Source: a virus (lineage: Duplodnaviria; Caudoviricetes). Taken from it: DNA of 61,696 nt. This document shows, one piece after another, positions 1 through 61,180 of the stretch. The notes below the pieces were generated by a model. It was not told the DNA's origin, did no database searches, and saw only the letters and a list, made by a program, of their open reading frames with translations. Location of the stretch: the IMG/VR virus record IMGVR_UViG_3300035703_000096, positions 1 to 61,696 of that record, one strand, 5' to 3'. The position numbers and the translations under genes are program-made. Position 1 is the stretch's first letter. Each line of letters starts with the position of its first letter.

Positions 1-35
1 TACGCTTTTGACTTGATAATGAATAAATGCCCTAA
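1..35. repeat. Terminal overlap of circular assembly (identical to 61662-61696)
   Basis: tacgcttttgacttgataatgaataaatgccctaa occurs at both ends. Confidence 0.97.
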
Positions 36-260
36 GCTTTCACGAATTTTTGCGTCCACATCCTCAATAGTCTGCTCAATTACCTTCCGCATTGCCTCAT
101 TACTGAGTTCAACCTCACGCTTGGTCTTTAGCCATTTGTCCTTGGCGCTGTTAAGCTTGCCCCAATCTACCAACCCGCCACTATTGGACGAGGTTGGTTT
201 GTTCATCTTCTCGAACTCATTCACCAATGAGTCGATGATTCTTTGCTGATTCTCTGTCAT
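1..260 (-). CDS. Hypothetical early protein, 5' part (continues across the junction to 61661..61412; 169 aa total)
   Basis: ATG at 260 (MTENQQRIIDSLVNEF...). 260+250 nt = 170 codons, ending in TGA at 61412-61414, which overlaps the next ATG. Confidence 0.8.
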   Translation of the reverse strand, partial: MTENQQRIIDSLVNEFEKMNKPTSSNSGGLVDWGKLNSAKDKWLKTKREVELSNEAMRKVIEQTIEDVDAKIRESLGHLFIIKSKA

Positions 261-264
261 ATTG

Positions 265-1092
265 TTATTTATTAAGTTGAAGTGTCTTCGAAGACACTGC
301 TCGTTTCATTTCCTTGAACGTGATGCGGTGACATCCTATCTCCACCTCAGATTTGGTAATTCCAAGTACTCGATAGTCCATCAGACTATCCCCCACTACA
401 ACCTTGCCCGCCTTGAGCAGTTCATAGAACTTGAGCCCGATGGAATGTGGTATCTCCACACCTTGAGAAGTGATGAATCGATTGGTCTCCACACGGATAT
501 AATCGTATGCATTACGGATTGACATCCTGTGTTTTTTACCGGAACGGAACAGCTTGAGCTCACGCTTGTGTTCCTTCTCTAAGCGCTCAGCCTCAGCCTT
601 TGCCGCATTTGCAATCGCCTCCTTTGCGTCAGCAGTTGACGTGACCAATAGCTTGGTCTTGATATGGTCGGGCACGTCAATCTTGAAGTGCTCACAATAC
701 GTATCAATCTGAGATCCAAAATGAGCAAGCGTATGCAGATGTGCTTCAGGCTTTCGACACGTAGTCAAAGCTTTGAGTATCCTGTCAATACGCTCATCCC
801 ACCACCTAAAATTGTCATTGTGCGTGCCACGCGGGTAAGCGCAGTATATCTTCCGCTTGTGCGACAAGGCTTGCGCTGAATAGTTCAAGTGCTTGGCCGT
901 GGTATTGCTGTAGGTCCGTGTTGTGAATAGGACAGTGTCCGCGTTCACAAATTTGGCAATGCAAAAGTGCGAGCCGTAACTGAATAACTCAGTGCCGTAG
1001 AAGTAGAACGAACCATTGGTTGTTCTTCCTTCGTATTGATTCTGAAGCGCAAATGCGTGCGCTAACTCAGAGTTGTTAAATACTTTTTTCAT
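265..1092 (-). CDS. Hypothetical early protein (275 aa)
   Basis: Long ORF in a tightly packed minus-strand operon. Confidence 0.85.
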   Translation of the reverse strand: MKKVFNNSELAHAFALQNQYEGRTTNGSFYFYGTELFSYGSHFCIAKFVNADTVLFTTRTYSNTTAKHLNYSAQALSHKRKIYCAYPRGTHNDNFRWWDERIDRILKALTTCRKPEAHLHTLAHFGSQIDTYCEHFKIDVPDHIKTKLLVTSTADAKEAIANAAKAEAERLEKEHKRELKLFRSGKKHRMSIRNAYDYIRVETNRFITSQGVEIPHSIGLKFYELLKAGKVVVGDSLMDYRVLGITKSEVEIGCHRITFKEMKRAVSSKTLQLNK

Positions 1093-1280
1093 AGTTTTGA
1101 TTTTTTAAGGAAATGATTGTACACCTCGGGGATGTGTTTTTTGTAGTAAGGTTGTTCACTTTTACACCACGCTTTCAATTCATCTTTTGAACTGAATCTT
1201 TGATACGGAAATGTTATTTCCAATTCATCAATGAAGTTTTGGGCTGTCCAACCTTCCCAAATGTGCCTGTCGTTTGCCAT
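1089..1280 (-). CDS. Hypothetical protein
   Basis: ORF MANDRHIWEGW...; its stop overlaps the next start. An alternative GTG start at 1313 lies inside the palindrome. Confidence 0.75.
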   Translation of the reverse strand: MANDRHIWEGWTAQNFIDELEITFPYQRFSSKDELKAWCKSEQPYYKKHIPEVYNHFLKKSKL

Positions 1281-1320
1281 ATTATTTTGTTTTATGAGTG
1301 TCTTCAAAGACACTCGGTTA

Positions 1321-1734
1321 TTATTTTTTACTCTCTAAAATTGCCTCACCATTACTGAACGTACCTACCTTGAGGTACTCGTCATAGAATTGGCTAATCT
1401 TTCCCCAATTCTCATCGATCCACTTCTCCACCTTCTCAATATCTTCACCTTCCACCTCATCAGTGTTCACACGAATAGACAATGAGCACACTCCGCAATA
1501 CTCAGACAGCCCTATCTCAGTGCCGTATCCGGACAAGATGATGGACGTTTCACGGCCGTCCCATTTCTGCTCATTGCCAAACTCCGGCAGTTCAGCCTTG
1601 ATGTTTTCACGTATGTCGTCCACGACAAACATGTGGTCTTCGTATTCGAATTCGCCCTCTTCAGTTTCCCATTTAGGCCAATCAAAGTAGGCAATTCTGC
1701 GTGCCCCGCGCAAGTAATCTACACTGCGTCCCAT
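1321..1734 (-). CDS. Hypothetical acidic protein
   Basis: 137-aa ORF in operon. Confidence 0.8.
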   Translation of the reverse strand: MGRSVDYLRGARRIAYFDWPKWETEEGEFEYEDHMFVVDDIRENIKAELPEFGNEQKWDGRETSIILSGYGTEIGLSEYCGVCSLSIRVNTDEVEGEDIEKVEKWIDENWGKISQFYDEYLKVGTFSNGEAILESKK

Positions 1735-1736
1735 AG

Positions 1737-1973
1737 TTATTTGGTTTTAGATGATTGTTTTATTTCAAAAATTTTATCTTCGATTATATCAAAGATGCGC
1801 TCAACTATGTAAGGATGAGTGAGCGCCTGCTTGAGTGTTTTTTGCGCTGTATCATCATCGCACTCATGCCTATCTTGCACGTCATTGATGTGCCAAAGAT
1901 TGTCCACAAAATACCCTGCCTGTTTTAACACCAATTTTGCATTGGCGATGGCGATTTCTCTTGATTGTTCCAT
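1737..1973 (-). CDS. Hypothetical protein
   Basis: 78-aa ORF, 2 nt from its neighbours. Confidence 0.75.
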   Translation of the reverse strand: MEQSREIAIANAKLVLKQAGYFVDNLWHINDVQDRHECDDDTAQKTLKQALTHPYIVERIFDIIEDKIFEIKQSSKTK

Positions 1974-1975
1974 TT

Positions 1976-2164
1976 CTATTTGGTTTTAGTAGTGTCTTCA
2001 AAGACACTCGGTGATACATAAATTATCTCTCCTTCAATTGCGTCAATCTTCAACTCAAAAGGACGTTCATCCTCCGACATATTGAACACCACAATTTTGG
2101 GCTCCGCATTTTGGCAAGCCGTGAGCATCCCGCACACGACTGCAATAAGAATTGTTCTTACCAT
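1976..2164 (-). CDS. Small putative lipoprotein
   Basis: Hydrophobic N-terminus with lipobox-like LTAC. Confidence 0.65.
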   Translation of the reverse strand: MVRTILIAVVCGMLTACQNAEPKIVVFNMSEDERPFELKIDAIEGEIIYVSPSVFEDTTKTK

Positions 2165-2301
2165 TGGTTATGTTTTAAGTAGCATTTACTTGGTTTAGCA
2201 TTGGCACTGCGCTTGTGATGCGCCTTGTAATTGTAGCCACGTTGAGTAGCGCAAGCCGTGAACAATAACGCCACGACAAAAAGTAGAATCAGCTTTCTCA
2301 T
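2158..2301 (-). CDS. Small putative lipoprotein (47 aa, not in ORF track)
   Basis: MRKLILLFVVALLFTACATQRGY...; lipobox FTAC; overlaps both neighbours. Confidence 0.65.
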   Translation of the reverse strand: MRKLILLFVVALLFTACATQRGYNYKAHHKRSANAKPSKCYLKHNQW

Positions 2302-2483
2302 TTTCTTCCGTTTTTAGTGTCTTCAAAGACACAAATTAGTGATGCAATTGTTAGCAGTGATGAGAAGAACCCAACAAAGTTGGCAAAGTTCTGTTCCTGC
2401 TGAGTTGTGGAAAAGATTCCAATTACCAAGCACAGGGCTTGGAAAGTCACGCCCATTGTGAGCGCCATTAAACTTACTTTCAT
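2298..2483 (-). CDS. Small membrane protein (2 TM)
   Basis: Two hydrophobic stretches; first gene after the leftward promoters. Confidence 0.65.
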   Translation of the reverse strand: MKVSLMALTMGVTFQALCLVIGIFSTTQQEQNFANFVGFFSSLLTIASLICVFEDTKNGRK

Positions 2484-2582
2484 ATTATTTATTTTTAGTT
2501 GGTTTCAAAACATTAGTGTCTTCAAAGACACTCAGTAACATTGTGCTGATGTGAATTGAACGCTGTATCGACATCAACAGTG

Positions 2583-2614
2583 CAAATATACGGCATAACT
2601 TCCACATACACAAG
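2583..2614 (-). promoter_or_regulatory. Bacteroidota sigma70-type leftward early promoter
   Basis: TATATTTG (-7 element) at 2590-2583 with TTG (-33) 20 nt upstream. Confidence 0.75.
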
Positions 2615-2754
2615 CTTTTAGCTATCTAATTAGTTTCAGTTGAAAACTCCGCGCCGTGTACATTCACCGCTTTCCGTTTAGTGTCTTCAAAGACACTTTC
2701 ACTTTGTCGCGCGCCGTTCACAATGATTTGAACGATGTATCGACATCAGTGGAA

Positions 2755-2786
2755 CAAATATACTACTTTTATTTCACTCCCGCAAG
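2755..2786 (-). promoter_or_regulatory. Second, duplicated leftward early promoter
   Basis: TATATTTG at 2762-2755, TTG 20 nt upstream; flanks homologous to the 2583 promoter. Confidence 0.75.
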
Positions 2787-3159
2787 CAAATGGCTTGCTA
2801 ATTAGTTCCCAATTGGTACAGCCGCGCGCCGTGTCCGTGTTCCGTGTGCAATATTCCACACGTGTAAGCGCCATTGTCCACACGTGTAAGCGCGTGCCGT
2901 GTACATTCACCGCGTGCCGTGTTTAGTATTGGAGCGGGGCAATTTCAGCGGGGCAAAGTGTCGTTAAAGACACTATGTAAGCGGGGCAATTTACGCGGGG
3001 CAATATTGCCAGGGATATGGCTTGAAATAAGCCGTTTTAAGCCGCTTTTAGGGCTTAAGATATACCTACATATCAAAGAAGGTTCAAAAGTCGTTTATAG
3101 GCCGTCTAATTGCGTCTAATTAGGGGCGCGCTTTGTTGTGCACCGGTGAAAATATAGGG

Positions 3160-3190
3160 CAAAAAAATAGCCCCGCTTTCGCGGGGCTAT
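3160..3190 (-). terminator. Intrinsic terminator after 3212..3976
   Basis: atagccccgc-tttc-gcggggctat hairpin with an A-run on the left (U-tract on - strand). Confidence 0.8.
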
Positions 3191-3211
3191 CTTTGGCGCG
3201 GGGCGCGGGGT

Positions 3212-3976
3212 TTATATCACGTCTTCAAAGGTCACGTCTTCAAAGGTCAAACCATCGGCAACGGCCTTCAAAATTTCAGCTTTGCGGGGCTTTGGCGCTT
3301 TGGCCGTTGACGGCTTGGGCGCTACTTTGTTTTTTGCTTTGGCTTTGGTCACCTTTGGCGCTTTGGGGCTTAAGCCCGCACCCGCTACGGCTTGCGCAAG
3401 ATAATCAAGCGCCGCGGCGATTGCGTCGGGGCTTGCTTTTGTTATCAATTCGCCGTTATCGTTTATGCGAAGCGCGACCGCTTCAAGACCATCTACTTTG
3501 AACGCCAAAGTTACGACGGCTTGCGCTTTGGCTTGCACTTCTTTGGCGCTTGCTTCGCCCGCTTCGCCATCTTCGCCCGCTTCGCTTTGCGTCTCTAACT
3601 TCGCTTCGCTTGCATACTTCAATAGCGCTTCAATAGATAGGGGCGCGCTCAAATCTTTGGCCTTTAAGGCCTCAGTTTGCTTGCGAAATTCGCTTAACAC
3701 GTCCGCGGGTACATTTGCGGCCTTTACCAATTTGTAGTAAAACGATTTTTGGAAACCGTACACGTCCAATATAAACGCGTCCATGCCAAGCCCCGAAGAT
3801 TTTAGAAGCGCTTGGCCCTCAGCGTCTTTTATCCATTGGTGCGCCTTGCCTATTAGCTCAGCAAGATGGAGCGAATTTTCAAAGCGCTTTACATCGCTTG
3901 ATTGGATAGCGTTTTTAATCGTTTGCACCTTTACAATGTTTAAGGCGCTTTTTTGTTGGTTTGTCATGTTTACCAT
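3212..3976 (-). CDS. Putative DNA-binding protein (DUF3102/HTH-like N-domain, Lys/Ala/Pro-rich tail)
   Basis: LAELIGKAH...DAFILDVYGFQKSFYYKLVKAA resembles the DUF3102-type pattern; H1-like PKAPKVTKAKAK tail; has its own promoter and terminator. Confidence 0.6.
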   Translation of the reverse strand: MVNMTNQQKSALNIVKVQTIKNAIQSSDVKRFENSLHLAELIGKAHQWIKDAEGQALLKSSGLGMDAFILDVYGFQKSFYYKLVKAANVPADVLSEFRKQTEALKAKDLSAPLSIEALLKYASEAKLETQSEAGEDGEAGEASAKEVQAKAQAVVTLAFKVDGLEAVALRINDNGELITKASPDAIAAALDYLAQAVAGAGLSPKAPKVTKAKAKNKVAPKPSTAKAPKPRKAEILKAVADGLTFEDVTFEDVI

Positions 3977-4042
3977 GATGTTAAGATATTATTTTGTTTG
4001 CAATACCTAAAACAGCTTCGTGCTGTTCCTTCGTTGCGTTTG

Positions 4043-4075
4043 CAATATTACGTTCAATTTTAGTTTAATTCCAAA
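4043..4075 (-). promoter_or_regulatory. Putative promoter of 3212..3976
   Basis: TAATATTG (-7 variant) at 4050-4043 with TTTG 21 nt upstream. Confidence 0.55.
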
Positions 4076-4218
4076 TTTATTTTCGAGAATCTCACTTTTG
4101 CCAATGTTTATTGGGGTTACAGAAGGTTCATATAACGTCGATAAATTTAGTTTTTTGGGCTTTGAGACGGGTTTAATAGCGGGGCTTATTGTGTCTTCAA
4201 AGACACTTTTACCCCTAC

Positions 4219-4268
4219 TTTTGTTGTCATAAAGTACAATATTTTTGTTGTCATAAAGTACAATATTT
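4219..4268 (+). repeat. Tandem ~25-bp direct repeat (ttttgttgtcataaagtacaatat x2)
   Basis: Read directly. Confidence 0.9.
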
Positions 4269-4591
4269 GCGGGGCTGAAACGCTGGCTTTTGTGTGATCA
4301 TTGGCGCGGATTAAATTTGTTTCACGGCTTGTTTCACGGGCACGCGATGACAGGACGCAAGGACGAACGAACGAACGAACGGACGCGGGGCAAATATGCG
4401 GGGCAATGGTGCACGATGTCGGGGCGCGGTGCGGGGCTATGGTGCGGGGCTTTGCCCTATGGCAAAAGGTCAAAAAATCGGCGCGGGGCTTTGGAAACGT
4501 ACCCCCACCCCCTTGAAAAAAAGTCACTTTCGGCGCGGGCCCGGCTTGCGTGAGGCGGTATATAACCCCAACACTACTACCATCTAATTCG

Positions 4592-4599
4592 TATATTTG
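4592..4599 (+). promoter_or_regulatory. Rightward promoter -7 element TATATTTG
   Basis: Bacteroidota consensus; ATG 4 nt downstream. Confidence 0.65.
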
Positions 4600-4603
4600 C
4601 CTC

Positions 4604-4816
4604 ATGATATACAAAACCATAAAAAGCTCTTGCATGGACGGGTTACCTGTTCGTGATGGGCGCCTAATGAACGATCGTCCTGATTCGGTCATGGGTATTA
4701 CTGCTGCCGCTATTGCTCGTAAGGAGATGAAGCGGGAGAGAAAGATTCAGATGTACTCTGAGGCTTTTGAGCGTGGTGAGATGATGGCTGACATGAAGAA
4801 AACCTTTATGTTATGA
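4604..4816 (+). CDS. Hypothetical protein
   Basis: ORF MIYKTIKSS... immediately after promoter. Confidence 0.65.
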   Translation: MIYKTIKSSCMDGLPVRDGRLMNDRPDSVMGITAAAIARKEMKRERKIQMYSEAFERGEMMADMKKTFML

Positions 4817-4980
4817 GCAAGGACCAATTGCTTGGCGTCATCCGTCACACCCTAACCTTTCTTGGAGGTATCGCTATGGCGAAAGGGATCATTGATGAGG
4901 GATCGGCATCTGAAATTGTAGGTGGTCTTATGTCACTTGCCGGTGTTGTTTGGTCTTTTCTTGACAAAGAGAAGATTTGA
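4813..4980 (+). CDS. Small 2-TM holin-like protein (Pam3-gp28-like), 55 aa
   Basis: MSKDQLLGVIRHTLTFLGG...GVVWSFLDK pattern; ATGA overlap. Confidence 0.6.
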   Translation: MSKDQLLGVIRHTLTFLGGIAMAKGIIDEGSASEIVGGLMSLAGVVWSFLDKEKI

Positions 4981-4993
4981 ATTGAACCATCTT

Positions 4994-5025
4994 AAAAGGG
5001 GGATTTAGCGATCCCTCTTTTTTTA
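4994..5025 (+). terminator. Intrinsic terminator
   Basis: aaaagggggat-ttagcg-atccctcttttttt. Confidence 0.75.
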
Positions 5026-5248
5026 TGTACTTTTCCGACATTGAAATGTTTCTAATTATGTAACTTAACTTATTGATTATTAATTTACTGTCGATTATGT
5101 CAATTTAAAAAGTAAAATGTATTAATAAATAATAAGAAAGAAAGGGGGATATATATATAAATAAGGGGGGGCCTTCTCTCGACATTTGACACAGCAATTT
5201 ATCAATTAAACATTTATTAGACACTCAATAAACACTCGTATTTTTTTC

Positions 5249-5279
5249 TTGCTTCAACATCAAATATTCATTACATTTG
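5249..5279 (+). promoter_or_regulatory. groEL promoter
   Basis: TTG-N20-TACATTTG. Confidence 0.7.
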
Positions 5280-5297
5280 CCTAAATATTTTAATCAA

Positions 5298-6914
5298 ATG
5301 ATACCAAATCAACAATCTTACTCGCCAAAAGACTTATTCTTTGGTGACACAGGTCGGCGTAAACTCGTCACCGGCGTTCAAAAAATGGCACGAGCTGTCA
5401 AATCAACCTTAGGTCCCGGTGGTAACACTGTGGTCTTAGAGTCATTAAACCACACACACGGCCTGACGGTCACTAAGGATGGTGTAACAGTGGCTAAGTC
5501 CATTGAGCTACTTGATCCGGTGGAGAACCTTGCGGTTCGAATGATGAAGGAAGCGGCGGACAGGACTGCTACCGCAGCAGGAGACGGTACTACTACGGCG
5601 ATTGTGTTGACTGAGGCTTTGGTTATGTCAGGTCTTGAGTACATTACTGACGGTGTCAACCGCACTGAGGTGCTGAGACACTTGGTGGACATGACAGGTA
5701 GTGTGGTGGACAACCTTAAGAAGCGTTCAAAGAAGCTGACAAGTTCAATGCTTCTTGACGTGGCTACCATATCAGCCAATAATGACCGGGCGGTTGGGTC
5801 AATCATCTCAAACGTCTACAAGTCTGTTGGCAAAAACGGCATTGTCACTGTTGAGCGGTCTCAAACTGCTGACACGTATTCTGAGACAACACTTGGTCTT
5901 AAGTTTGACAGAGGGTATTTGTCACCACTGTTCATCAATGACCAAAAAAAGGACGAGTGTGTGTATGAGGACGTGATGGTCATGGTGGCTGACATTGAGA
6001 TAAGCAATATCTTGCAGATTGAGAACGTGCTGAAGCCAATCATTAGTGAGGGGAAGAAGCTACTCATCATCTCTCCATGTGGAGTGAATGTTGTAAATAC
6101 CCTTGCGGCCAATGTGATGAAGGGTAACTTAAAGATTTGTGCGGTGCAGCCACCCAATTTCGGATACAAGCAGCATGAGCTGATGCAAGACATTGCCATT
6201 AGCGTGGGTGCAACTTACTTCAGCGAGAAGACAGGTGATGACCTGAGCCTAATTAACTACAGTGACCTTGGACATGCGAAGAAAATCATCGTGTCAAGCG
6301 ACAGTACCATCATCATCAAGTCTGACGAGCGGTCAAACAAAGAGGCGATCGCTGAGAGAGTTGAGCAGTTGTGGGCGTCACATGCCTCAGCTACCAAGAA
6401 GGGTGACAAAGACCATATCTTGGAGCGTATTGCCTCGCTTACAGGTGGCATTGGTGTGATCTACGTGGGTGGTAATACTGACCTTGAGCAGAAAGAGCTG
6501 TATGACCGTGTGGATGACGCGGTGTGTGCCGTTCGTTCAGCGCTTGAGGAGGGGATTTTACCCGGAGCAGGTAGAGCACTTGACGAAGAAGCTGACAAAT
6601 TGGTGTCTGAGCCGGGTAATGAGGCTCAGCATATTGCTGTGAAAATGTTAAAGGACGCGCTTCAGGCTCCAATGTCACAGATACTTCAGAATGCGGGTAT
6701 GTGCGTGACCAATGTGTACAATGGGCGTGAGGCTTCCGGTGAGGGATTGAACTTAAAGACCGGACAGAAGGGTGACCTGATTGAGATGGGTGTGATTGAC
6801 CCGCTGAAGGTGACGAGAAGTGCGCTTGAGAACGCTGTGAGCGTAGCATCAACCATCATGAGCACAAATGCTGTGATCACAATGGCGAGAAGTTATGAGA
6901 CAGCAAGCGAGTAA
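5298..6914 (+). CDS. groEL: Chaperonin GroEL
   Basis: TLGPGG, VTKDGVTVAK, AGDGTTTA, FDRGYLSP, GVIDPLKVTRSALENA motifs. Confidence 0.97.
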   Translation: MIPNQQSYSPKDLFFGDTGRRKLVTGVQKMARAVKSTLGPGGNTVVLESLNHTHGLTVTKDGVTVAKSIELLDPVENLAVRMMKEAADRTATAAGDGTTTAIVLTEALVMSGLEYITDGVNRTEVLRHLVDMTGSVVDNLKKRSKKLTSSMLLDVATISANNDRAVGSIISNVYKSVGKNGIVTVERSQTADTYSETTLGLKFDRGYLSPLFINDQKKDECVYEDVMVMVADIEISNILQIENVLKPIISEGKKLLIISPCGVNVVNTLAANVMKGNLKICAVQPPNFGYKQHELMQDIAISVGATYFSEKTGDDLSLINYSDLGHAKKIIVSSDSTIIIKSDERSNKEAIAERVEQLWASHASATKKGDKDHILERIASLTGGIGVIYVGGNTDLEQKELYDRVDDAVCAVRSALEEGILPGAGRALDEEADKLVSEPGNEAQHIAVKMLKDALQAPMSQILQNAGMCVTNVYNGREASGEGLNLKTGQKGDLIEMGVIDPLKVTRSALENAVSVASTIMSTNAVITMARSYETASE

Positions 6915-7311: not shown

Positions 7312-7569
7312 ATGAAACCAATAGGTAAATACATTATTGCTGTCATCACCGAGGGTGAGACAAAGACTGACTCGGGTTTGATACTATCAGGCAAGGACAT
7401 GGACCAATTCAGATACCGCCGTGCAGTGGTGGTTGAGTCCGGCACTGACGTAGCCCACATTAAAAAGGGTGACAAGATTTATTTCGACAAGGTGCAGAGC
7501 TTTACGATGATCATCAAAGACACGCAGTACACTATTCTTCGGGAGTCTGATGTCGTTGTTGTCGAATAG
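7312..7569 (+). CDS. groES: Co-chaperonin GroES
   Basis: MKPIG, KTDSGLIL mobile loop, IKKGDKIYF, ILRESDV. Confidence 0.9.
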   Translation: MKPIGKYIIAVITEGETKTDSGLILSGKDMDQFRYRRAVVVESGTDVAHIKKGDKIYFDKVQSFTMIIKDTQYTILRESDVVVVE

Positions 7570-9047: not shown

Positions 9048-9383
9048 ATGAAAGACGCCTGCTACAAAAAGGTAAAAGCACAGTATGATGTTTTTCCATC
9101 TGCAAGAGCTTCACAAGCTATTGCTAAATGCAGGAAGGCTTCGGGTAATGTCAAAAAATCTGAAGATGGCACATCTCTCAAGCGTTGGGAGAAAGAGAAA
9201 TGGGTAGATACCCGAACAGGTAAAGCCTGTGGCGCCGGTGGTAAGAATGAATACTGCAGGCCAAGTAAGCGAGTGTCTTCAAAGACACCGGTAACAAAAT
9301 CAGAAATGTCCCCATCCAAGTTAGCAGCTAAGAAAGCTGAGAAGTCAAGAGTAGGTATGGGTAATCGAATATCAAAAGTGTAG
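9048..9383 (+). CDS. Small basic protein (DUF5872-like)
   Basis: SLKRWEKEKWVD...CRPSKRVSSKTP. Confidence 0.7.
   Translation: MKDACYKKVKAQYDVFPSARASQAIAKCRKASGNVKKSEDGTSLKRWEKEKWVDTRTGKACGAGGKNEYCRPSKRVSSKTPVTKSEMSPSKLAAKKAEKSRVGMGNRISKV
9273..9288. repeat. GTGTCTTCAAAGACAC palindrome (intragenic)
   Basis: Exact copy. Confidence 0.95.
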
Positions 9384-22906: not shown

Positions 22907-22941
22907 AAAGGAGGTGTCCACTATGGACACTTCCTTTTTTA
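22907..22941 (+). terminator. Intrinsic terminator after capsid gene
   Basis: aaaaggaggtgtcca-cta-tggacacttcctttttt. Confidence 0.85.
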
Positions 22942-39200: not shown

Positions 39201-42200
39201 GGACGCTACTCCTGAGGACATGCTTGACTTCATGGTCACCATATCAGATAGAATGGCGAGAGGTATGAGTCTCAATGAGTTCTTCAGAGACACCGCACCT
39301 TCAGGTCCCGCCGGACCCGGAGTGTCTTCAAAGACACAAAGAGTACCTTCTAAGCAGAAGTTAATCGAGCAGGCTCGATTAAAAACAAATTACTTCCTAC
39401 CTAATATGATGGGAGGAGTTAATGTTTTGACACCTGAGAATTATGCGGCAATGCTTCAGGAGTTTATAGACACAGGGGTCATTGAGAATGTAGACAGCTA
39501 TTCAACAAGAGAGTTAACTGAGTCACAATTTCCTTTAGAAGAATCAAACGGTGTCAATCCAATGGGACTTCGTGACGCTGACGCAGCTAAGTTTGAATTG
39601 GAAGGGGTGAAGGAATCAATGGCTAAAGTTCCGGCTAAAGTTAAGAAGCAAGTTCCCGCCTATCATGGAAGCCCTTATGATTTTGATAAGTTTGCTACTG
39701 AAAAAATTGGAACAGGAGAAGGTGCTCAAGCTTATGGTTGGGGATTATATTTTACAGACTTGAAAGATATTGCTGAAAATTATGCAAATCAGTTAAGTGA
39801 ACCAACTATTTATATTGATGGAAAGGAATTCTTATATGAAGGTGAGAATAAAAAAAATCCTATATGGGCATTGGGTGCAGAATTACTTAGAGTTCGATCT
39901 AAAAATGATTTGTTAGAAGAAGCTTCTATTCAAGTTTTTAGAAAAGATATAACTCAATCTCAGTATGAAGCGATTGTAAATTTTGCAAAAACATTTGACT
40001 CTTTAGAACAAAGAAAGAATAGAAATTTATATAATGTTACTCTTCACGAAGGTAAAACTCCTGATCAATATACTTGGCTTGAGTGGGATAAACCTATGTC
40101 TGATAGAGCATTGGAATTGTTTCAAAAATTTAATAAAGAGCAAGGTATAAAACTTAGTGAATCAACAGCTCCTGTTGCTGAAGAAGATAGGATTACTGTT
40201 GGGCAAATGTATAAATTCATTTCTAATAAAATAGGTCAAAAAGAAGCTTCACTATTTCTTCTAAAAAATGGAATTGACGGTATAAAATATCCTGCCGAAT
40301 ATACTTCTCGTGGAGCTACATCAGAAACAGCAAGAGGATTTAACTATGTGGTTTTTGATGAGAATGCTGTAACGATTAAGAACAAGGTAAGATTCCAACG
40401 CCCCGGTGACAGTGCAACCCTTGCTGAGGTAAAGAAGATTGCCTTGAGGTATAACATGAATGACAGAGGGTTCATCCCCAAGACTGCGAGTGAGGTTGTT
40501 CTTGCGCGTGAGCTTGCACCATATGGATACGGAGCCAAGAGATCGAAGATTACTCCTGAAGGTTATGGTGGTACTGTATACATGACAAACGCAGCAGGTA
40601 AGTTCTTTAATCCATTCACTGTTAAGAAGCACCGCATCAGCTTATCAGGCGGGAAACTTAATCCAAATGTCAATACCATTGAAGGGTATGACCGCATGAT
40701 GGATCAGGTTCAAACCATCATTGACAAATCAGAGAGAAGAGGTGTAGCCAAGGATAAGATCATGGAGAACGTGATGGAGTACGTTACTAAATCTAAGGTC
40801 TATGAAAGAGCCAATGACTCACAGCGTGAGCAGTTGGTTCGTAATGTTGAGACTGAATTTGGTAAGGCGCAAAAGTCTTCACCATCAGTTGGTAAGATCC
40901 TCGGTACTTTGAAGGATATCAAAAAGATTACCCTGACTGAAAAGGAATTGCTTAAGCAGCACTTCAGAGACTTGGCTAAGGGTGCTCGTGATGCGAAGCG
41001 TGCGTTCATGCAAGCAAGTGATGACTTGTCATTGGCTGTGTCAGAGTTGGCTAAGTCCGGTAAGATATCACCAAAGCAATTGTCTGATGTGATCCGTAAG
41101 TTCAGCAAGGTGAACATGCTCAATGAGGATTCAACCAATGCCTTTGTTGATTACATGACCAAAGTATTTGAGGATGCTGACTACGCTCAGAAGATCGCCG
41201 GTATCAGAACCAAGATTACAAAGGCGAGAGGTAATCTCAAATCAAAGATTGGTGTTGCTGATGCTATTGCTAATCCAATGAGAAAGCTATTGGCTGTCAA
41301 CCCAACATTGATCCCTGATGACGTGTTTGATAAGTACATCAACATCGTAAACATGTTTTCGGCAAATCAAGCTGTTCTTCCGTTAAAGGATATTAGCGAC
41401 ATATCTCAGGACATCAATGACATCTTCCAATCCTTGGATGAGCAGTTGTCAAAGAGTGAGGAGTTGGCCATTCGATTCGATGACTTTGCAGATAAGGTTG
41501 TGAATGAGGAGAACGGTAAGATACAATACGCTGACACCGTTAACAAGATGGAGAAGGATGGTATCGTTACAGCTGAGGAAGCTGAGCTCATGAAGAAGTA
41601 TAAGTCAGTTATCTTCCCAACAGAAAAGAAAGAAGGCAAGACCCCTGCTGAGATTCAAGCTGAGAACAATACACTCATCAAAGCCATTACTGATGCCAAG
41701 ATGAACTTGGATCGTCTTACGCTTAAGGATGAGAGAGAGTTGGCTGACAACATCAGACGATTGCTTAAGCCTGAGCTATTGAAGCAATTGACAACTGCTC
41801 AGCTTACCAATCTAATCAAGTTGATAGACAATATCAACAATGGTTTCATGCCTCACTATGGTATGTTGGCATTCGAGAGATTGAATGCTATCAAGAATTC
41901 CACTCCTGTAGGTGAGGCTACTTTAACTGCAAAGCCATTACCTGTCACTCAGGTTTACAATAACCTTAAGAGTAAGTTTACTAAGAAGGGTGGTATCTTG
42001 GAGATGGTTCGATCAGGAGGATTCTTCTTTATTGATCAGGTCTTTGGCAACTTCAAGACTAAGCCAATCTTCAATGCTTTGTTTGAAAAAATATCTGAGG
42101 CTCAATCAGCATTTACATCTGCACTTGGTCAAGTGAATAAGAAGTTAGACGCAGCACATGATGCTGTTGCAAAATCATTTGCTTACGATGCGAACAAAAC

Positions 42201-49450: not shown

Positions 49451-50968
49451 TTAAATTTTATTATCTAATAGTTTTTTAAAGTGATTAATTGTGTAATCTT
49501 TTTTCTTAGTAACTGTCTTATAAATATCTGATTCAATACCATCTTTCGCAAAGATCCAATACACATTGTTCTCAAGTCTGTCCTTGGTAGTCATCCTATC
49601 CTTGGCTTGCCAATAACTTGTAGCACTGAAGTCAATGTTATAGAACACCAAGTACTCAGCGTTTCGTAAACTTATACCCTCACGCCCTGATACAATTTGT
49701 AAAGCTATACTTTTATCAGTGTCATCGAAGACACTCAGTTCTGTTGTGATGTCATCACCGAAGACCTGCTTGATTGCTGATAGCTCCTCTTTAAACTTAT
49801 AGAAGATACCGATCTTGCATCCGGCAAAGTGTTCTTTAATGAACTCAGCCTTGCTTGTGTCAATCACCATTGAGTTACCACTCTCGAACTTGATTGTACC
49901 GGAACAGAGTTGATGGACCTTCATCATTAGTTTCACCGGTGTGTCTGCTAAGATAACCTCTTCCTTTCCCTCAATAACCAAATCCTTTTTAAGTTTTTCA
50001 ATCAGCTTGTAAGTAGATGGTTTCATCTTCACCTCAATCACCTCCTCTGTAGTAACAGCATTAAATCCTGCTGCCTGCTGAGTGTAGCTGATGGTGTATG
50101 GTTCCATTATACTCAATATGATATCATGACCTCTTGAGTAATCGTTGATCAACATACCATTTACTTTTTTCTGCTTTACATCAACATACCCTGCGGCAAA
50201 TTTGTAGAAATTTGTACAATGATAAAATGGATTTCTTGGTATACCATACACTTGGTGGTATACTTGAGAATAACTCTCCGGCGTTGGCGTTCCCGAAAGT
50301 AAGATAACCTTAGGCTTATACTTTTGGATTACTTCTTTCACTAACTGAGCTCTTGAGCTTGGCTTTGGAAACGCGCCCATACTATGGGCCTCATCGCAAA
50401 TAATCACATCCCATTTCTTATGATCCATCACGTGATGTAAACTCTCGTAGTTCACAACAGTTAGCTCAAAGAAAGGTGACATCATCTTGTAGTCATCTTC
50501 AATTGAACTCATTGCTTTCTTCTTGGTTATGAACAACACGTTGTTAATATCTAAACGAGCACAGATGCCAAGGCTTGTAAGCGTCTTACCGGTGCGAACC
50601 TCCATGGCAAGATAAAGGAATCCATGATCTTTCAGAATCTTGTAACCATCGTTTATGATTCTTGTCTGATAGTCACGGAACTGAACACCTCCACTGACTG
50701 ATACTTCTTTGACTTGTTTCATTTCTTCTGTGTTTGGATTAGAGTAATACTCATAGCTTCTGAGGATCCTGTCGATCACTTCCTTGTCAGTCTTGAACTT
50801 AGGAACCTTAACTTCAACAACCTTCTTACCTACCTTCTCTTTCTTTATGACAGTGGCAAGGACAACATCTCTGATTAAGGAGATGCTGTCTGCCATCATC
50901 TTGTTAGAGTAAAAGGGAGTTCTCGGTATGATATCTAACGCTTGATTTTCCTGTTGCATGAACTGCAT
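49451..50968 (-). CDS. SF2 (SNF2-like) helicase
   Basis: FRDYQ, MEVRTGKT, DEAH, LSGTP, GREGISL, QAKDR; start codon uncertain. Confidence 0.88.
   Translation of the reverse strand: MQFMQQENQALDIIPRTPFYSNKMMADSISLIRDVVLATVIKKEKVGKKVVEVKVPKFKTDKEVIDRILRSYEYYSNPNTEEMKQVKEVSVSGGVQFRDYQTRIINDGYKILKDHGFLYLAMEVRTGKTLTSLGICARLDINNVLFITKKKAMSSIEDDYKMMSPFFELTVVNYESLHHVMDHKKWDVIICDEAHSMGAFPKPSSRAQLVKEVIQKYKPKVILLSGTPTPESYSQVYHQVYGIPRNPFYHCTNFYKFAAGYVDVKQKKVNGMLINDYSRGHDIILSIMEPYTISYTQQAAGFNAVTTEEVIEVKMKPSTYKLIEKLKKDLVIEGKEEVILADTPVKLMMKVHQLCSGTIKFESGNSMVIDTSKAEFIKEHFAGCKIGIFYKFKEELSAIKQVFGDDITTELSVFDDTDKSIALQIVSGREGISLRNAEYLVFYNIDFSATSYWQAKDRMTTKDRLENNVYWIFAKDGIESDIYKTVTKKKDYTINHFKKLLDNKI
49719..49734. 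repeat. Palindrome variant GTGTCATCGAAGACAC (1 mismatch)
   Basis: Inside the helicase gene. Confidence 0.8.
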
Positions 50969-54167: not shown

Positions 54168-54265
54168 TTTGATTTGTTTTTTTTGCCCTAATCTATTTGT
54201 TAACCAAGCGTCGAATCCTTAGGGCTGAACGCTTCACTTGGTGTTGTGTCTTTGAAGACACAATG

Positions 54266-56778: not shown

Positions 56779-57403
56779 TTGCTGATTTGATTATGTTAGC
56801 AATCTCTTTCTTAATAGCCGGTGACATCTTGTACTTGCGTGTCAACTGCTTGCCTATCTTGTCAATACCAAGTGAGGCATTGGCTGAAACGTAGGCTACC
56901 ACCTTGTCCCAATTCTCTGAGTCTTTCTTGAGGTCAATCAAGGTATCAGCAGGCTTGGCATCGGGTGTCTTTGAAGACACAGGATGAGATGGTCTGTCGG
57001 TAGTAACCTCAGGCACATCCTCACCGGTCCACAAGCTAAGGCCAAGCCCATGCATGGCAATTGCCTTAGCAGTTGAACGCTGAATGGTTTTGTTGACATC
57101 AGTTGCTGTGACCTTGTCAATATGCACTGCATTGTTACGGAAATCCATAACCGGAAGGTAGTCAATGTGCTCGATGCCACCGACAGTGATACCCACTTTC
57201 ACCCAAGCAGTCTTGCCATCAGTGAAGTAGTTGTAACCGGTGTGGTCATGCTCATACACCTTACGTTGTGCATCAGGGTAAACAGCTTTGAGCATTGCCC
57301 AAGCATTGGCCCATGATAGATAGTCAAGGTTACCCTTGCGCTCGATTTTTTCCTTTACGCTGATCTCCGATAGCGTAGAGAAGATTGATTTTTTCTCTGA
57401 CAT
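56744..57403 (-). CDS. sak: Sak single-strand annealing protein (DUF1071)
   Basis: LDYLSWANAW, LPVMDFRN, NKTIQR...KAIAMHGLGL.LW.GED. Confidence 0.88.
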   Translation of the reverse strand: MSEKKSIFSTLSEISVKEKIERKGNLDYLSWANAWAMLKAVYPDAQRKVYEHDHTGYNYFTDGKTAWVKVGITVGGIEHIDYLPVMDFRNNAVHIDKVTATDVNKTIQRSTAKAIAMHGLGLSLWTGEDVPEVTTDRPSHPVSSKTPDAKPADTLIDLKKDSENWDKVVAYVSANASLGIDKIGKQLTRKYKMSPAIKKEIANIIKSANESGDTAETNE

Positions 57404-58600: not shown

Positions 58601-58653
58601 ATTGATTTGGGTTTTAAGGAGGAGTGTCTTTGAAGACACTCCATCCTTGGTTA

Positions 58654-59421: not shown

Positions 59422-59845
59422 CTTGCCTGTTGATTATCTCAGTTATTTCATCTTCAAAGTTATCCAAGTTGAAGGATCCGGAACGCATGAGGTCAGTCTC
59501 GTCAATATCTACACTTGCAGTCACTCGCACCTCATCCCCATAATCATTCGTGTCCATCGTAATGGCTTCACTGAAGTTATAGTTGTCTACGCAGTTACCA
59601 ACATATGTCTCAGCATAGTTGAGGGCAAGCCTGCCTATCTCTTTAATCTTTTCTTCAGACATCACGCTTCGCGTTGGAGTGTCTTCGATGACACTAAATG
59701 TCTCACGCAATTTGTTGGTGTAAGCACTGATGATTGCAGACACGTCTTGACGTGTGAAGATTGAACCGCACATTACACTTTGATTTTCTGTTAACGATGT
59801 CAGGAACTCCCTCTCTGCATCGTTGATGATGTTGATGTTTTTCAT
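59408..59845 (-). CDS. Hypothetical acidic protein
   Basis: 145-aa ORF. Confidence 0.7.
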   Translation of the reverse strand: MKNINIINDAEREFLTSLTENQSVMCGSIFTRQDVSAIISAYTNKLRETFSVIEDTPTRSVMSEEKIKEIGRLALNYAETYVGNCVDNYNFSEAITMDTNDYGDEVRVTASVDIDETDLMRSGSFNLDNFEDEITEIINRQDEQN

Positions 59846-60822: not shown

Positions 60823-61180
60823 GATGTATTAATTCGTTTTGTAGGTACACATTACACTCGTTGTTGGTCTCCGAGTAACTGACAATGTACCATTTATTGC
60901 CAATTAAAAATTCTTTGATGAAGTCAGTAGTGGGTTCATCCGCAATGCATATCATCACCCATGCATCATCAGTGAGTTGGACATGGAAGTATTGATAGTC
61001 GCGCTCATCGTCCCACTCAGTGTAGTAAGATTCACCGAGGTCAACCATGAGGTCCCATTCTTTCTCAGTGTAGTGTCTTCGAAGACACTCGTCACTGCAG
61101 TAGTAAAAGACGCCTGCGTCAATTACATACCCATCATTCATACCGCATCCGCAGATGCTACATTTTCTTGCGTAAAGCAT
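60797..61180 (-). CDS. Hypothetical Cys-rich protein
   Basis: RKCSICG.GM.DGY...YYCSDEC...YYTEW. Confidence 0.7.
   Translation of the reverse strand: MLYARKCSICGCGMNDGYVIDAGVFYYCSDECLRRHYTEKEWDLMVDLGESYYTEWDDERDYQYFHVQLTDDAWVMICIADEPTTDFIKEFLIGNKWYIVSYSETNNECNVYLQNELIHHEKISDFI

What the first reader, a model, noticed from the sequence alone, without database searches (positions are those of the whole stretch)
282..4206. Dispersed 16-bp palindrome GTGTCTTYRAAGACAC (at least 16 copies): candidate parS-like protein-loading system
Seen: 13 exact cores (282, 1298, 1992, 2317, 2516, 2681, 4191, 9273, 39322, 54246, 56965, 58624, 61073) and 3 one-mismatch cores (2958, 49719, 59679). Nine lie inside unrelated genes in all three frames (VSSKT, VFEDT/VFDDT/VIEDT, CLRRH), so selection acts on the DNA rather than the peptide. 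Most are not at promoters, which argues against simple operators. They are not CRISPR repeats (no regular spacers) or terminators (no U-tract). Known: 16-bp palindromes tolerated inside genes are typical of parS and Noc-type sites that nucleate a dimeric DNA-binding protein, but this sequence is not the bacterial parS consensus. Inference: a phage cis-element plus binding protein that coats, anchors or protects the genome.
Basis: partly seen in the sequence, partly recalled or inferred. Interest (0 to 1): 0.9.

Follow-up and report, generated by a model that had tools for sequence, protein, structure and literature searches.

The report
Phage palindrome sites with partner protein
A 16-base palindrome repeated across this water-borne phage genome, mostly at the joints between early genes, always travels with one uncharacterised phage protein whose relatives go with differently spelled palindromes, which points to a new protein-and-site control system rather than a chromosome-partition site.

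Summary
In detail: 13 exact and 3 one-mismatch copies, none expected by chance. The window is a complete 61.7-kb phage of a large family of aquatic Bacteroidota phages, with 427 primase relatives in IMG/VR.

The invariant part is GTGTC-N6-GACAC. Ten of 16 copies lie in non-coding DNA or in the last codons of a gene, and six lie 15-32 nt before a start codon of the leftward early module.

Relatives carry 10-19 copies each, or one of four other spellings of the same GT-N4-T-YR-A-N4-AC design, or none. Only one window gene tracks this: 3212-3976(-), 254 aa, no Pfam or PHROG family. It is in 15 of 15 palindrome-bearing records and 0 of 5 complete palindrome-free genomes.

Sites inside genes are kept by synonymous-codon choice, and even by amino-acid changes that follow each genome's spelling. 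The protein is predicted to be a symmetric homodimer. Its fold likeness to ParB/KorB DNA-binding domains is only weak.

My best reading is a dimeric early regulator with dispersed operators, like KorB or "stoperators". An RNA-hairpin role is not excluded: in relatives, hammerhead ribozymes, tRNAs or terminator T-runs follow the hairpin. The parS-like reading is only partly supported.

The parts
282..297 (.). Palindrome copy (centre CG), in the last codons of ORF 265-1092(-), 21 nt before ATG 260 of the next leftward ORF
1298..1313 (.). Palindrome copy, between ORF 1321-1734(-) and ATG 1280; 17 nt before that ATG
1992..2007 (.). Palindrome copy, in the 3' end of ORF 1976-2164(-), 18 nt before ATG 1973
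2317..2332 (.). Palindrome copy, in the 3' end of ORF 2298-2483(-), 15 nt before ATG 2301 of a 47-aa ORF (2158-2301) with a lipoprotein-like signal (my reading of the sequence)
2516..2531 (.). Palindrome copy in a leader: 32 nt before ATG 2483, and 51 nt after a TATATTTG box (2590-2583 on the - strand) that fits the Bacteroidota sigma-A -7 consensus TAnnTTTG
   Evidence: consensus from passages of PMC9723704
2681..2696 (.). Palindrome copy in non-coding DNA, 58 nt after a second TATATTTG box (2762-2755, - strand). It is part of a ~170-bp imperfect duplication of the 2516 unit.
   Evidence: D1, D4
2958..2973 (.). One-mismatch copy GTGTCGTTAAAGACAC, flanked on each side by two GCGGGGCAA repeats. 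Its left half matches the spelling used by MW202828.1.
   Evidence: D3
3212..3976 (-). Candidate partner protein ('p254', 254 aa). It has a helical N-domain (1-125), an acidic linker, a small beta-beta-beta-alpha C-domain (150-200) and a Lys/Ala/Pro-rich tail. It is the first gene of the leftward early module, beside the divergent junction.
   Evidence: no family; co-occurrence; models; dimer prediction
3160..3194 (-). G+C-rich hairpin plus T-run directly after the p254 stop codon: terminator-like
   Evidence: I8
4191..4206 (.). Palindrome copy in the divergent control region, 214 nt before ATG 3976 of p254. G001, G004 and G015 have a copy 227-290 nt before their p254 homolog.
9273..9288 (.). 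Intragenic copy in ORF 9048-9383(+) (Pfam DUF5872). It encodes VSSKT and is kept by codon choice in 5 of 5 GTGTC-type genomes that have the gene.
22910..22940 (+). Terminator-like hairpin after the capsid-like gene 21450-22898. Its apex is GTGTCCACTATGGACAC in the window; relatives have the canonical palindrome at this apex.
39322..39337 (.). Intragenic copy in the 2758-aa virion-protein ORF 36298-44574(+). G001-G004 also have one copy inside their giant ORF; I could not show that the positions are homologous.
49719..49734 (.). One-mismatch intragenic copy in helicase ORF 49451-50968(-), encoding SVFDDT. It is a conserved site whose peptide follows the genome's palindrome type.
54246..54261 (.). 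Intergenic copy, 4 nt after the stop of ORF 54266-54529(-) and 78 nt before ATG 54167 of a 90-aa SSB-like ORF (acidic DDDVPF end)
56965..56980 (.). Intragenic copy in the Sak-like annealing-protein ORF 56744-57403(-)
58624..58639 (.). Intercistronic copy, 23 nt before ATG 58600. Flanks add 3 base pairs to the stem.
59679..59694 (.). One-mismatch intragenic copy in ORF 59408-59845(-)
61073..61088 (.). Intragenic copy (centre CG) in ORF 60797-61180(-)

Best explanation
The palindromes are binding sites for the phage's own protein p254 (3212-3976, - strand). p254 is the first product of the leftward early module.

Mechanism:
- p254 binds as a symmetric dimer to the two half-sites GTGTC and GACAC. 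These are 11 bp apart centre to centre, across an A/T-rich spacer with a flexible pyrimidine-purine centre.
- Sites sit at nearly every joint between early genes, squeezed between a stop codon and the ~17-nt A-rich leader of the next gene.
- A handful of conserved sites lie elsewhere: in the helicase, the DUF5872 gene and the giant virion gene, and, in relatives, near the start of the terminase gene and at the apex of the capsid terminator.
- Once p254 accumulates, occupied sites act as operators or roadblocks that shut down or meter transcription through the early module. This resembles the dispersed operators of plasmid RK2 KorB and the 'stoperators' of mycobacteriophage repressors.

Shown here: the sites, their placement, nucleotide-level selection on them, lineage-specific spellings, and strict co-occurrence with the p254 family.

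Inferred: that p254 binds them, that it binds DNA rather than RNA, and that the effect is repression.
For: 1. Non-random element. 13 exact plus 3 one-mismatch copies against 0 expected. It is the most repeated 12- and 14-mer in G000-G004.
2. Family feature.
 - 113 of 120 viral contigs found by the motif alone match the window by blastn.
 - G001-G004 hold 13-18 copies with up to 1 mismatch; G005 holds 1.
 - In 596 Gb of prokaryote genomes the rows shown were single copies, except one 56-kb contig with 5 copies (cut at 120 rows).
3. Placement.
 - 10 of 16 window copies are non-coding or within the last codons of a gene, and six lie 15-32 nt before an ATG.
 - In MW202828.1, using the depositors' own CDS calls, 6 of 14 copies lie 16-23 nt before a CDS start, and 5 begin exactly 3 nt after the previous stop.
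4. Half-site architecture.
 - In relatives the inner TTYRAA varies asymmetrically, while GTGTC/GACAC stay fixed.
 - Only 10 one-mismatch variants of the outer arms were found in all sources searched.
5. Five spellings of one design (GT-N4-T-YR-A-N4-AC): GTGTCTT..AAGACAC; GTCTC..GAGAC (G006 with 10 copies, G007 with 12); GTACGGTTGACCGTAC (G008, 7 copies with up to 2 mismatches); GTGCACTCGAGTGCAC (G009, 4 copies); GTGTCGTTAACGACAC (MW202828.1, 14 copies).
6. Partner.
 - Of 90 window ORFs compared with 14 genomes, only 3212-3976 tracks palindrome presence.
 - With an HMM it is found in G001-G004, G006-G009 and G015, and not in G005 or G010-G013.
 - It is in 5 of 5 further palindrome-bearing records, G016-G020.
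 - It is in 0 of 5 records whose loci lack palindromes, G021-G025; only G025 is complete.
 - Among 80 primase loci, 18 hold the gene and all 18 have at least 2 palindromes. None of the 24 loci with 0 palindromes holds it.
7. Not just shared ancestry. On the primase tree the presence/absence label needs 3 changes, at least 2 of them forced by well-supported branches. G000 and G008 are sisters on that tree yet use different spellings.
8. Trans-acting. Sites far from the p254 gene follow the genome's spelling.
 - Helicase peptide: SVFEDT in 5 of 6 GTGTC-type genomes (SVFDDT in the window, a one-mismatch copy), SLFEET in G006, and DEFNxT or SQFENG in 7 of the 8 others. G005 is the exception.
 - Terminase: KCLQRH versus ESLQRD.
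 - DUF5872 peptide VSSKT uses identical motif-forming codons in 5 of 5 GTGTC genomes, but other codons in G012 and G013.
 - The capsid terminator apex is GTCTC-type in G006.
9. Dimer. The two-copy prediction scored 0.76 against a best control of 0.00. That mark was reached by 20 of 30 proteins solved as pairs of one chain and 1 of 23 solved as single chains. The runs agree in at least 98% of contacts and the partner pLDDT is at least 78. My own alignment was used, so these counts hold only roughly.
10. The gene is first in the early module next to the divergent junction in the window, MW202828.1, G004 and G001.
Against: - No binding was shown.
- p254 has no recognisable DNA-binding family: Pfam and PHROGs found nothing, Foldseek found nothing, and the Spo0J/KorB likeness (Z 5.0-5.5) does not stand above unrelated rows.
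- Co-occurrence is partly physical linkage, because most sites and the gene lie in the same mosaic early block.
- Flanks extend the stem on the sense strand with G.U pairs far more often than on the antisense strand: extensions of 4 bp or more in 60 of 207 contexts against 14 of 207, with about 13 expected from re-paired flanks. This is a signature of RNA hairpins, not of DNA sites.
- In relatives the hairpin is directly followed by hammerhead ribozymes, tRNA 5' ends or terminator T-runs. This fits an RNA role.
- G005 and G011, which lack p254, keep one relic copy each.
- No residue that explains the GTGTC/GTCTC switch was found; there were only 2 GTCTC proteins.
- Repression, as opposed to activation, is pure inference.
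Confidence: 0.45

Rival explanations
1. The functional form is the transcribed RNA hairpin. It sits right after a stop codon and ~17 nt before the next AUG. There it either marks mRNA 3' ends made by cleavage (hammerhead, RNase P, host RNases) and protects them, or it is a translational or termination operator bound by p254 as an RNA-binding protein.
For: - Sense-strand-specific stem extension with G.U pairs: 60 of 207 against 14 of 207 on the antisense strand.
- G004 cassettes run stop codon, 11-13-bp hairpin, type III hammerhead, A/C-rich leader, ATG.
- tRNA starts lie 2-4 nt after the hairpin in relatives.
- The palindrome forms the apex of the capsid-gene terminator in G001, G003, G004, G015 and G006.
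- Spacing to start codons is regular.
- Bacteroidota lack Shine-Dalgarno use and have short leaders, median 24 nt (passages of PMC9723704). Hammerheads flanking phage genes are read as mRNA processing (passages of PMC3088659).
Against: - The conserved part is the stem and the variable part is the loop, which is the reverse of most RNA-protein recognition.
- Positions 6/11 show C.A as often as U.G on the sense strand.
- Conserved copies inside translated ORFs lack stem extension.
- A copy lies upstream of the p254 gene in the divergent region in four genomes.
- The window itself has no hammerhead or tRNA.
- The wobble-asymmetry test on the outer arms was inconclusive: 4 against 2, with 4 neither.
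Confidence: 0.27
2. This is a parS/KorB-type loading system. p254 nucleates at the palindromes and spreads, slides or bridges, in order to partition, anchor, compact or protect the phage DNA.
For: - The 16-bp palindromes are tolerated and conserved inside genes.
- The best, though weak, structural matches of the helical domain are the Spo0J (ParB) and KorB DNA-binding domains: Z 5.5 with 90 residues aligned, and Z 5.0 with 85 residues aligned.
- The window's p254 has a basic Lys/Ala/Pro tail.
- KorB has dispersed palindromic operators and acts at a distance (abstract of PMC11790492).
Against: - No ParB N-terminal CTPase domain was found in p254 or in 39 homologs. None of 10 longer or divergent family members has any Pfam domain.
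- No ParA-like gene was found among the 40 window proteins scanned.
- Sites occupy successive gene joints, which suggests a per-gene role.
- The basic tail is absent from most homologs.
Confidence: 0.1
3. The palindrome is a phage-specific promoter, possibly extruded as a hairpin as in N4 early promoters (recalled). p254, or the giant virion protein, would be the specificity factor, so that each early gene, ribozyme or tRNA gets its own start a few bases downstream.
For: - The sequence is highly conserved in many copies just upstream of genes, hammerheads and tRNAs.
- No sigma-A -7 box lies between site and ATG.
- A 2758-aa virion protein of unknown function is present.
Against: - A symmetric site gives no direction.
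- The giant protein is present in palindrome-free genomes too and matches no solved polymerase by sequence.
- Some copies lie downstream of sigma-A-like -7 boxes, that is, inside leaders.
- Copies form terminator apexes.
Confidence: 0.08
4. The repeats are recombination joints with no trans factor. Identical short sequences flanking small early genes would promote cassette shuffling by the phage's Sak/exonuclease system, like the promoter-stem-loop cassettes of T4-type phages (recalled).
For: - Early modules are mosaic while the sites are constant: most early ORFs of the window have no homolog in relatives.
- The phage encodes a Sak-like annealing protein and an exonuclease.
Against: - 16 bp is short for recombination.
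- This does not explain the strict link to p254, the intragenic sites created at the cost of amino-acid changes, or the half-site/spacer pattern.
Confidence: 0.05

Closest known systems
KorB and its OB operators on plasmid RK2
   Same: About a dozen copies of a short palindrome are dispersed over one replicon. Some lie near promoters and some far from them. They are bound by one element-encoded dimeric regulator that controls many operons (abstract of PMC11790492; operator number and classes recalled). The KorB DNA-binding domain is among the best, though weak, structural matches.
   Different: p254 has no ParB-type CTPase domain and no detectable sequence relation to KorB. The sites sit at intercistronic joints of a phage early operon, and no partition partner was seen.
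Stoperators of Cluster A mycobacteriophages (L5 gp71-type repressors)
   Same: Many repressor sites are distributed over the phage genome, largely in short intergenic gaps, and stop elongating polymerase (abstract of PMC9283540).
   Different: Stoperators are asymmetric, orientation-dependent and bound by a monomer (title and abstract of PMC9283540). Here the site is a palindrome and the partner is predicted to be a symmetric dimer. No integrase or lysogeny module was found among the 40 window proteins scanned.
Hammerhead ribozymes flanking genes in phage genomes
   Same: In relatives (G004, G001, G006 and several loci), type III hammerheads sit between early genes in the gene orientation. Perreault et al. 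2011 describe such arrangements and read them as processing of long phage transcripts (passages of PMC3088659).
   Different: Each hammerhead here is preceded, 3-6 nt upstream, by the conserved palindrome hairpin. The window itself has the hairpins but no ribozyme.
Lambda N / boxB (nut) antitermination (recalled)
   Same: The first product of an early operon recognises a short hairpin-forming element in that operon.
   Different: Lambda has two nut sites, and recognition is of the RNA loop by a peptide. Here there are 13-19 sites with conserved stems and variable centres.

Membership tests
ParB/parS partition system | ParB N-terminal CTP-binding (ParB/Srx) domain | tested here: not met
   Pfam scans of p254 and of 40 family members gave no ParBc or any ParB-related family at E<=0.1. 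Ten longer or divergent members have no Pfam domain.
ParB/parS partition system | ParB/KorB-type helix-turn-helix DNA-binding domain | tested here: inconclusive
   VIA-align gave Spo0J 1vz0 at Z 5.5, rmsd 3.5, 90 residues, and KorB 1r71 at Z 5.0, rmsd 3.6, 85 residues. These are tied with unrelated helical proteins. Foldseek gave no match.
ParB/parS partition system | Partner ParA-type ATPase gene | tested here: inconclusive
   None was found among the 40 window proteins scanned with PHROGs and/or Pfam. About 50 small ORFs were not scanned.
ParB/parS partition system | 16-bp palindromic site, tolerated in genes | tested here: met
   The sequence differs from the bacterial parS consensus (consensus recalled).
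KorB-OB type global regulator | One element-encoded dimer with about a dozen dispersed palindromic operators | tested here: inconclusive
   Sites and co-occurrence are shown. The dimer is predicted only. Binding was not tested.
Stoperator / L5 gp71-type immunity | Asymmetric site with an orientation bias relative to transcription, bound by a monomer | tested here: not met
   The site is a palindrome, and its centre occurs in both orientations within one transcription direction. A dimer is predicted.
Stoperator / L5 gp71-type immunity | Many sites in short intergenic gaps across the genome | tested here: met
Intrinsic (Rho-independent) terminator | G+C-rich hairpin followed by a T-run | tested here: not met
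   None of the 16 window copies is followed by a T-run. Only the post-capsid site of relatives, and the window's variant at 22910-22940, have one.
Hammerhead ribozyme type III (Rfam RF00008), in relatives only | CUGAUGA...GAAA core with three stems | tested here: inconclusive
   Three hits in G004 of 41.1-42.9 bits, E 2e-7 to 6.6e-7 in a 2.6-kb search, below the gathering score of 48.5. There was none in the window at E<=5 in 1-5300 and 53500-61696, nor at gathering score in the whole window.
CRISPR array | Regularly spaced direct repeats | tested here: not met
   Spacing is irregular, from 165 nt to 30 kb.

The most novel reading that the evidence does not exclude
A programmable intercistronic control system of Shine-Dalgarno-less Bacteroidota phages. 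One small dimeric protein family, with no known fold family, reads a 16-nt palindrome both as duplex DNA and as the apex of RNA hairpins placed between cistrons. It has at least five co-evolved protein/site spellings. It works together with hammerhead ribozymes, tRNAs and terminators to set, gene by gene, where early transcripts end, are cut and are translated.
Probability: 0.2. Interest if true: 0.8.

Novelty: new variant of a known kind. Interest (0 to 1): 0.62.

Why it matters
Regulation in phages of Bacteroidota is almost unexplored, and their hosts use unusual promoters and no Shine-Dalgarno sites.

This finding gives a concrete, testable regulator-and-site pair:
- The protein family has 349 cluster representatives at E<=0.001 and no annotation.
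- It has natural specificity variants.
- The phage family is widespread in fresh and sea water.

It would:
- give a handle on early-gene timing in these phages;
- supply orthogonal protein/operator pairs for genetic tools in Bacteroidota;
- offer a case where selection on a DNA motif visibly overrides protein sequence in essential genes (terminase, helicase).

The tight pairing of the hairpin with hammerhead ribozymes in relatives also provides a natural system for asking what phage ribozymes are for.

Tried and rejected
- Expression data: no RNA holder was listed among 22 sequencing runs.
- Rfam: nothing in the window at gathering score. Only chance-level rows at E<=5 in the two early stretches.
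- ARAGORN: no tRNA in the window. It found none at the tRNA-like T-arm sequences that follow some palindromes in G004.
- N4-like idea (giant virion polymerase with hairpin promoters): the 2758-aa and 1903-aa proteins match no solved chain by sequence. PHROGs and Pfam give only 'unknown' and a sub-threshold ART-PolyVal hit.
- 90-aa ORF 53895-54167 looked motif-linked in the first 5 genomes. It is in nearly all relatives, including palindrome-free ones, and has an SSB-like acidic tail, so I dropped it.
- The DnaA-C HTH genes are present in both classes of genome, so I dropped them.
- p254 annotation:
 - Pfam, PHROGs, PDB sequences and Foldseek all gave nothing.
 - The ESM Atlas gave only unnamed viral clusters and a weak DUF3102 lead.
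 - Among deposited phage records, only uncultured MW202828.1 has a homolog.
- Specificity residue for GTGTC against GTCTC: one weak column only, and the test is underpowered.
- Wobble asymmetry of the outer arms: 4 sense, 2 antisense, 4 neither, so inconclusive.
- Frequency of upstream hairpins in palindrome-free against palindrome-bearing genomes: the ranges overlap and G+C content confounds the comparison.
- Host-genome origin: the genome-contig scan showed only single copies, as chance would give (my estimate), plus one phage-like contig in a Cytophagales bin. The scan was cut at 120 rows.
- Literature: the three motif spellings occur only in 2 unrelated papers. No paper holds 'Flavobacterium, phage, palindromic, intergenic, early genes' together. 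The 'elemo' phage search gave nothing relevant. Supplementary files were not consulted.

Full report
**What is there.**
- The pattern GTGTCTTYRAAGACAC occurs 13 times exactly and 3 times with one mismatch. Dinucleotide-preserving shuffles give 0.00 and 0.07 matches respectively. The next-best matches need 3 mismatches.
- The window is a whole virus record of 61,696 bp with a 35-bp terminal repeat, so its two ends join.
- Genes run leftward from about 44.6 kb through the end of the record to about 4.7 kb. This block holds a primase-helicase, a helicase, a Sak-like annealing protein, an exonuclease and many small ORFs.
- Genes run rightward from 4.8 to 44.6 kb. This block holds GroES/GroEL, large terminase, portal, capsid-like proteins and two giant virion proteins.
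- By large terminase, the nearest deposited phages are an uncultured podovirus from a spring (MW202828.1, 76% identity) and, below 60% identity, Flavobacterium, Cellulophaga, Tenacibaculum and Maribacter phages.

**Where the copies lie.**
- Ten of the 16 copies are in non-coding DNA or in the last few codons of a gene.
- Six lie 15-32 nt upstream of a start codon of a leftward gene: 282, 1298, 1992, 2317, 2516 and 58624.
- Two copies (2516, 2681) lie 51 and 58 nt downstream of TATATTTG boxes. These boxes fit the sigma-A -7 consensus TAnnTTTG of flavobacteria (passages of PMC9723704). Those two copies are therefore probably transcribed as leaders.
- The centre is CA, TG or CG, in either orientation relative to the genes. 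The element is thus functionally symmetric.

**The element belongs to a phage family.**
Of these, 113 match the window by blastn, typically at about 70% identity in structural genes.
- Whole records G001-G004 carry 13-18 copies with up to 1 mismatch. G005 carries 1.
- In a scan of 596 Gb of prokaryote genomes the rows shown were single copies. The exception was one 56-kb contig, binned with a Cytophagales MAG, that holds 5 copies and is probably a phage of this family.
- A host factor with many chromosomal sites is therefore unlikely.
- The primase finds 427 relatives in IMG/VR.

**Anatomy of the site.**
- In relatives the outer arms GTGTC and GACAC are nearly invariant. The inner six bases drift, and often break the symmetry: TTTGTA, TACAAA, TGTGAA, CTCAAA and others.
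- Only 10 one-mismatch variants of the outer arms turned up in all sources searched.
- This is the pattern of two 5-bp half-sites, 11 bp apart centre to centre, with an A/T-rich spacer.
- Other lineages use other spellings of the same design, GT-N4-T-YR-A-N4-AC:
 - GTCTC..GAGAC in G006 (10 copies, 2 of them hybrids) and G007 (12 copies);
 - GTACGGTTGACCGTAC in G008 (7 copies with up to 2 mismatches);
 - GTGCACTCGAGTGCAC in G009 (4 copies);
 - GTGTCGTTAACGACAC in MW202828.1 (14 copies).
- Complete genomes G005 and G010-G013 have none, or a single copy.
- In MW202828.1, judged by the depositors' own gene calls, 6 of 14 copies lie 16-23 nt before a CDS start. Five begin exactly 3 nt after the previous stop codon.
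- The joint is thus built as stop, site, ~17-nt A-rich leader, ATG.

**The partner.**
- I compared 90 window ORFs with the ORFs of 14 related genomes. Only 3212-3976(-) has a profile that follows the palindromes.
- With an iterated HMM it is found in all ten palindrome-bearing genomes, including the divergent G008 and G009 and a copy in G003 that a start-codon filter had hidden. It is found in none of G005 and G010-G013.
- Five more palindrome-bearing records all have it.
- Five records whose primase loci lack palindromes do not, though only one of those five is complete.
- Among 80 primase loci, the 18 that hold the gene all have palindromes. None of the 24 loci without palindromes holds it.
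- On a primase tree the presence/absence label needs three changes, at least two of them forced by well-supported branches. The window's sister, G008, uses a different spelling.
- Physical linkage explains part of this, since gene and most sites share the mosaic early block. It does not explain the distant sites, described next.

**Selection acts on the nucleotides, in trans.**
- In the DUF5872 gene the peptide VSSKT is shared by genomes with and without palindromes. All five GTGTC-type genomes use the same motif-forming codons. G012 and G013 use others, and G006 uses its own left half-site.
- In the helicase the peptide itself follows the spelling. It is SVFEDT in five of six GTGTC-type genomes and SVFDDT in the window, which has a one-mismatch copy there. 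It is SLFEET in G006. It is DEFNxT or SQFENG in seven of the eight others; G005 keeps a relic.
- In the terminase, KCLQRH becomes ESLQRD in G006. The window has lost this site.
- The terminator after the capsid gene exists in all 15 genomes. It carries the canonical palindrome at its apex in G001, G003, G004 and G015 and, further downstream and without a T-run, in G002. It carries the GTCTC form in G006, a variant in the window, and a one-mismatch relic in G011.

**What the partner looks like.**
- The family has 349 cluster representatives at E<=0.001, all about 200-320 aa or shorter among the best 150 listed. No member scanned has a Pfam or PHROG family or a name.
- AlphaFold2 gives a confident eight-helix N-domain (pLDDT 87.5 when folded alone), an acidic disordered linker and a small beta-beta-beta-alpha C-domain. 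An invariant Gly74 and Lys77 lie between two of the helices.
- Foldseek finds nothing.
- VIA-align puts the Spo0J (ParB) DNA-binding domain first (Z 5.5, rmsd 3.5, 90 residues) and the KorB DNA-binding domain sixth (Z 5.0, rmsd 3.6, 85 residues). Unrelated helical proteins score the same. This is a lead, not a classification.
- A two-copy complex prediction supports a symmetric homodimer, with a score of 0.76 against a best control of 0.00. That mark was reached by 20 of 30 proteins solved as pairs of one chain and 1 of 23 solved as single chains. The runs agree in at least 98% of contacts, and the pLDDT is at least 78. My own alignment was used.
- The gene is the first of the early module, at the divergent junction beside the GroES/EL block, in the window, MW202828.1, G004 and G001.

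**The RNA side.**
- In relatives the palindrome is the top of a longer hairpin whose flanks co-vary and pair only on the sense strand, with G.U pairs. Extensions of 4 bp or more occur in 60 of 207 contexts, against 14 of 207 on the antisense strand and about 13 expected.
- In G004 four successive joints read stop, 11-13-bp hairpin, hammerhead, A/C-rich leader, ATG. Rfam scores three of the hammerheads at 41-43 bits, with E about 1e-7 in that stretch, below the gathering score of 48.5. The fourth has a changed core.
- Similar hammerhead cores follow palindromes in G001, G006 and several loci. tRNA 5' ends follow others by 2-4 nt.
- Hammerheads flanking phage genes have been described and read as transcript processing (passages of PMC3088659).
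- The window has neither ribozyme nor tRNA.

**Weighing.**
- These points favour recognition of duplex DNA by a dimeric regulator: half-site conservation with a free spacer, conserved sites inside translated genes, a copy upstream of the partner's own gene in four genomes, and the predicted symmetric dimer.
- Successive gene joints are occupied, which favours control of expression over partition.
- The sense-strand stem extensions, and the company of ribozymes, tRNAs and T-runs, show that the transcribed hairpin also matters at many joints.
- The protein may read the RNA, or the two roles may be layered. I cannot separate these without binding or transcript data. No RNA run holds this phage.
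It is not supported in its specifics.

**Novelty.** Dispersed operators with one cognate regulator are known (KorB, stoperators; abstracts). New here are the protein family, the palindrome design with five natural spellings, its placement at intercistronic joints in phages of Shine-Dalgarno-less hosts, and its pairing with hammerheads. My searches found nothing in print on it.

Noticed in passing
L135 (G004:40001-60000) 9140-9194, 10235-10289, 10623-10677, and about 11340-11395: Type III hammerhead ribozymes sit between successive early genes of a relative, each 3-6 nt after the palindrome hairpin. The fourth has a changed core (CUGAUGAU...UGAAAC). Hammerhead-like cores also follow palindromes in G001 (13192), G006 (41818) and loci L107, L305, L314, L315 and L339.
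   Followed up: partly
window 2930-3005, 3170-3205, 4170-4190, 4380-4500: There are arrays of GCGGGGC(A/T) repeats on both sides of the p254 gene, four of them symmetric around the 2958 palindrome variant. This is a G+C-rich control region that also holds other repeats (CGCGCCGTGTACATTCACCGC x3, CCACACGTGTAAGC x2, and a 24-bp tandem TTTGTTGTCATAAAGTACAA x2 at 4216-4263). It may be an origin or a second operator set.
   Followed up: partly
window 3217-3246: The last codons of p254 (FEDVTFEDV) are encoded by a 15-nt tandem TCACGTCTTCAAAGG x2 that contains the inner 10 bases of the palindrome (GTCTTCAAAG).
   Followed up: no
G004:55128-55190 (L135 15128-15190); G006:40778-40840; G009:54585-54640: Some palindromes are followed after ~15-20 nt by a tRNA-like T-arm (GGTTCGAnTCC) and an acceptor-like 3' end, once ending in CCA. 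ARAGORN calls no tRNA in the G004 stretch; the G006 and G009 stretches were not scanned. These may be tRNA-like processing signals or decayed tRNAs.
   Followed up: partly
window-wide and relatives (e.g. L282, with 12 copies of AATCAAATCAA): The leader AAATCAAATCAAAT directly before ATG recurs in many family members, including palindrome-free ones. It is probably the family's translation-initiation region in hosts without Shine-Dalgarno use.
   Followed up: no
window 53895-54167 (-): A 90-aa ORF next to the primase gene ends in DDDVPF, like the acidic tip of bacterial SSB proteins. It is conserved in 13 of the 14 related genomes (absent from G005) but hits no Pfam or PHROG family.
   Followed up: partly
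window 36298-44574 (+) and 25695-31406 (+): There are two giant virion-type ORFs (2758 and 1903 aa). The first has a sub-threshold ADP-ribosyltransferase (ART-PolyVal) hit at residues 1121-1167 and no other assignable domain.
   Followed up: partly
loci L290, L342, L288, L264, L297 (relatives without the palindrome): These relatives have other repeated 11-13-mers in their early regions (e.g. AAATCATTAGG x7, AAATAAGATTATG x7). They may be alternative junction cassettes in lineages that lack p254.
   Followed up: no
window 5277-6914 and 7312-7569 (+): The phage encodes its own GroEL and GroES. Both are conserved in 13 of the 14 related genomes compared; the incomplete G002 lacks them.
   Followed up: no
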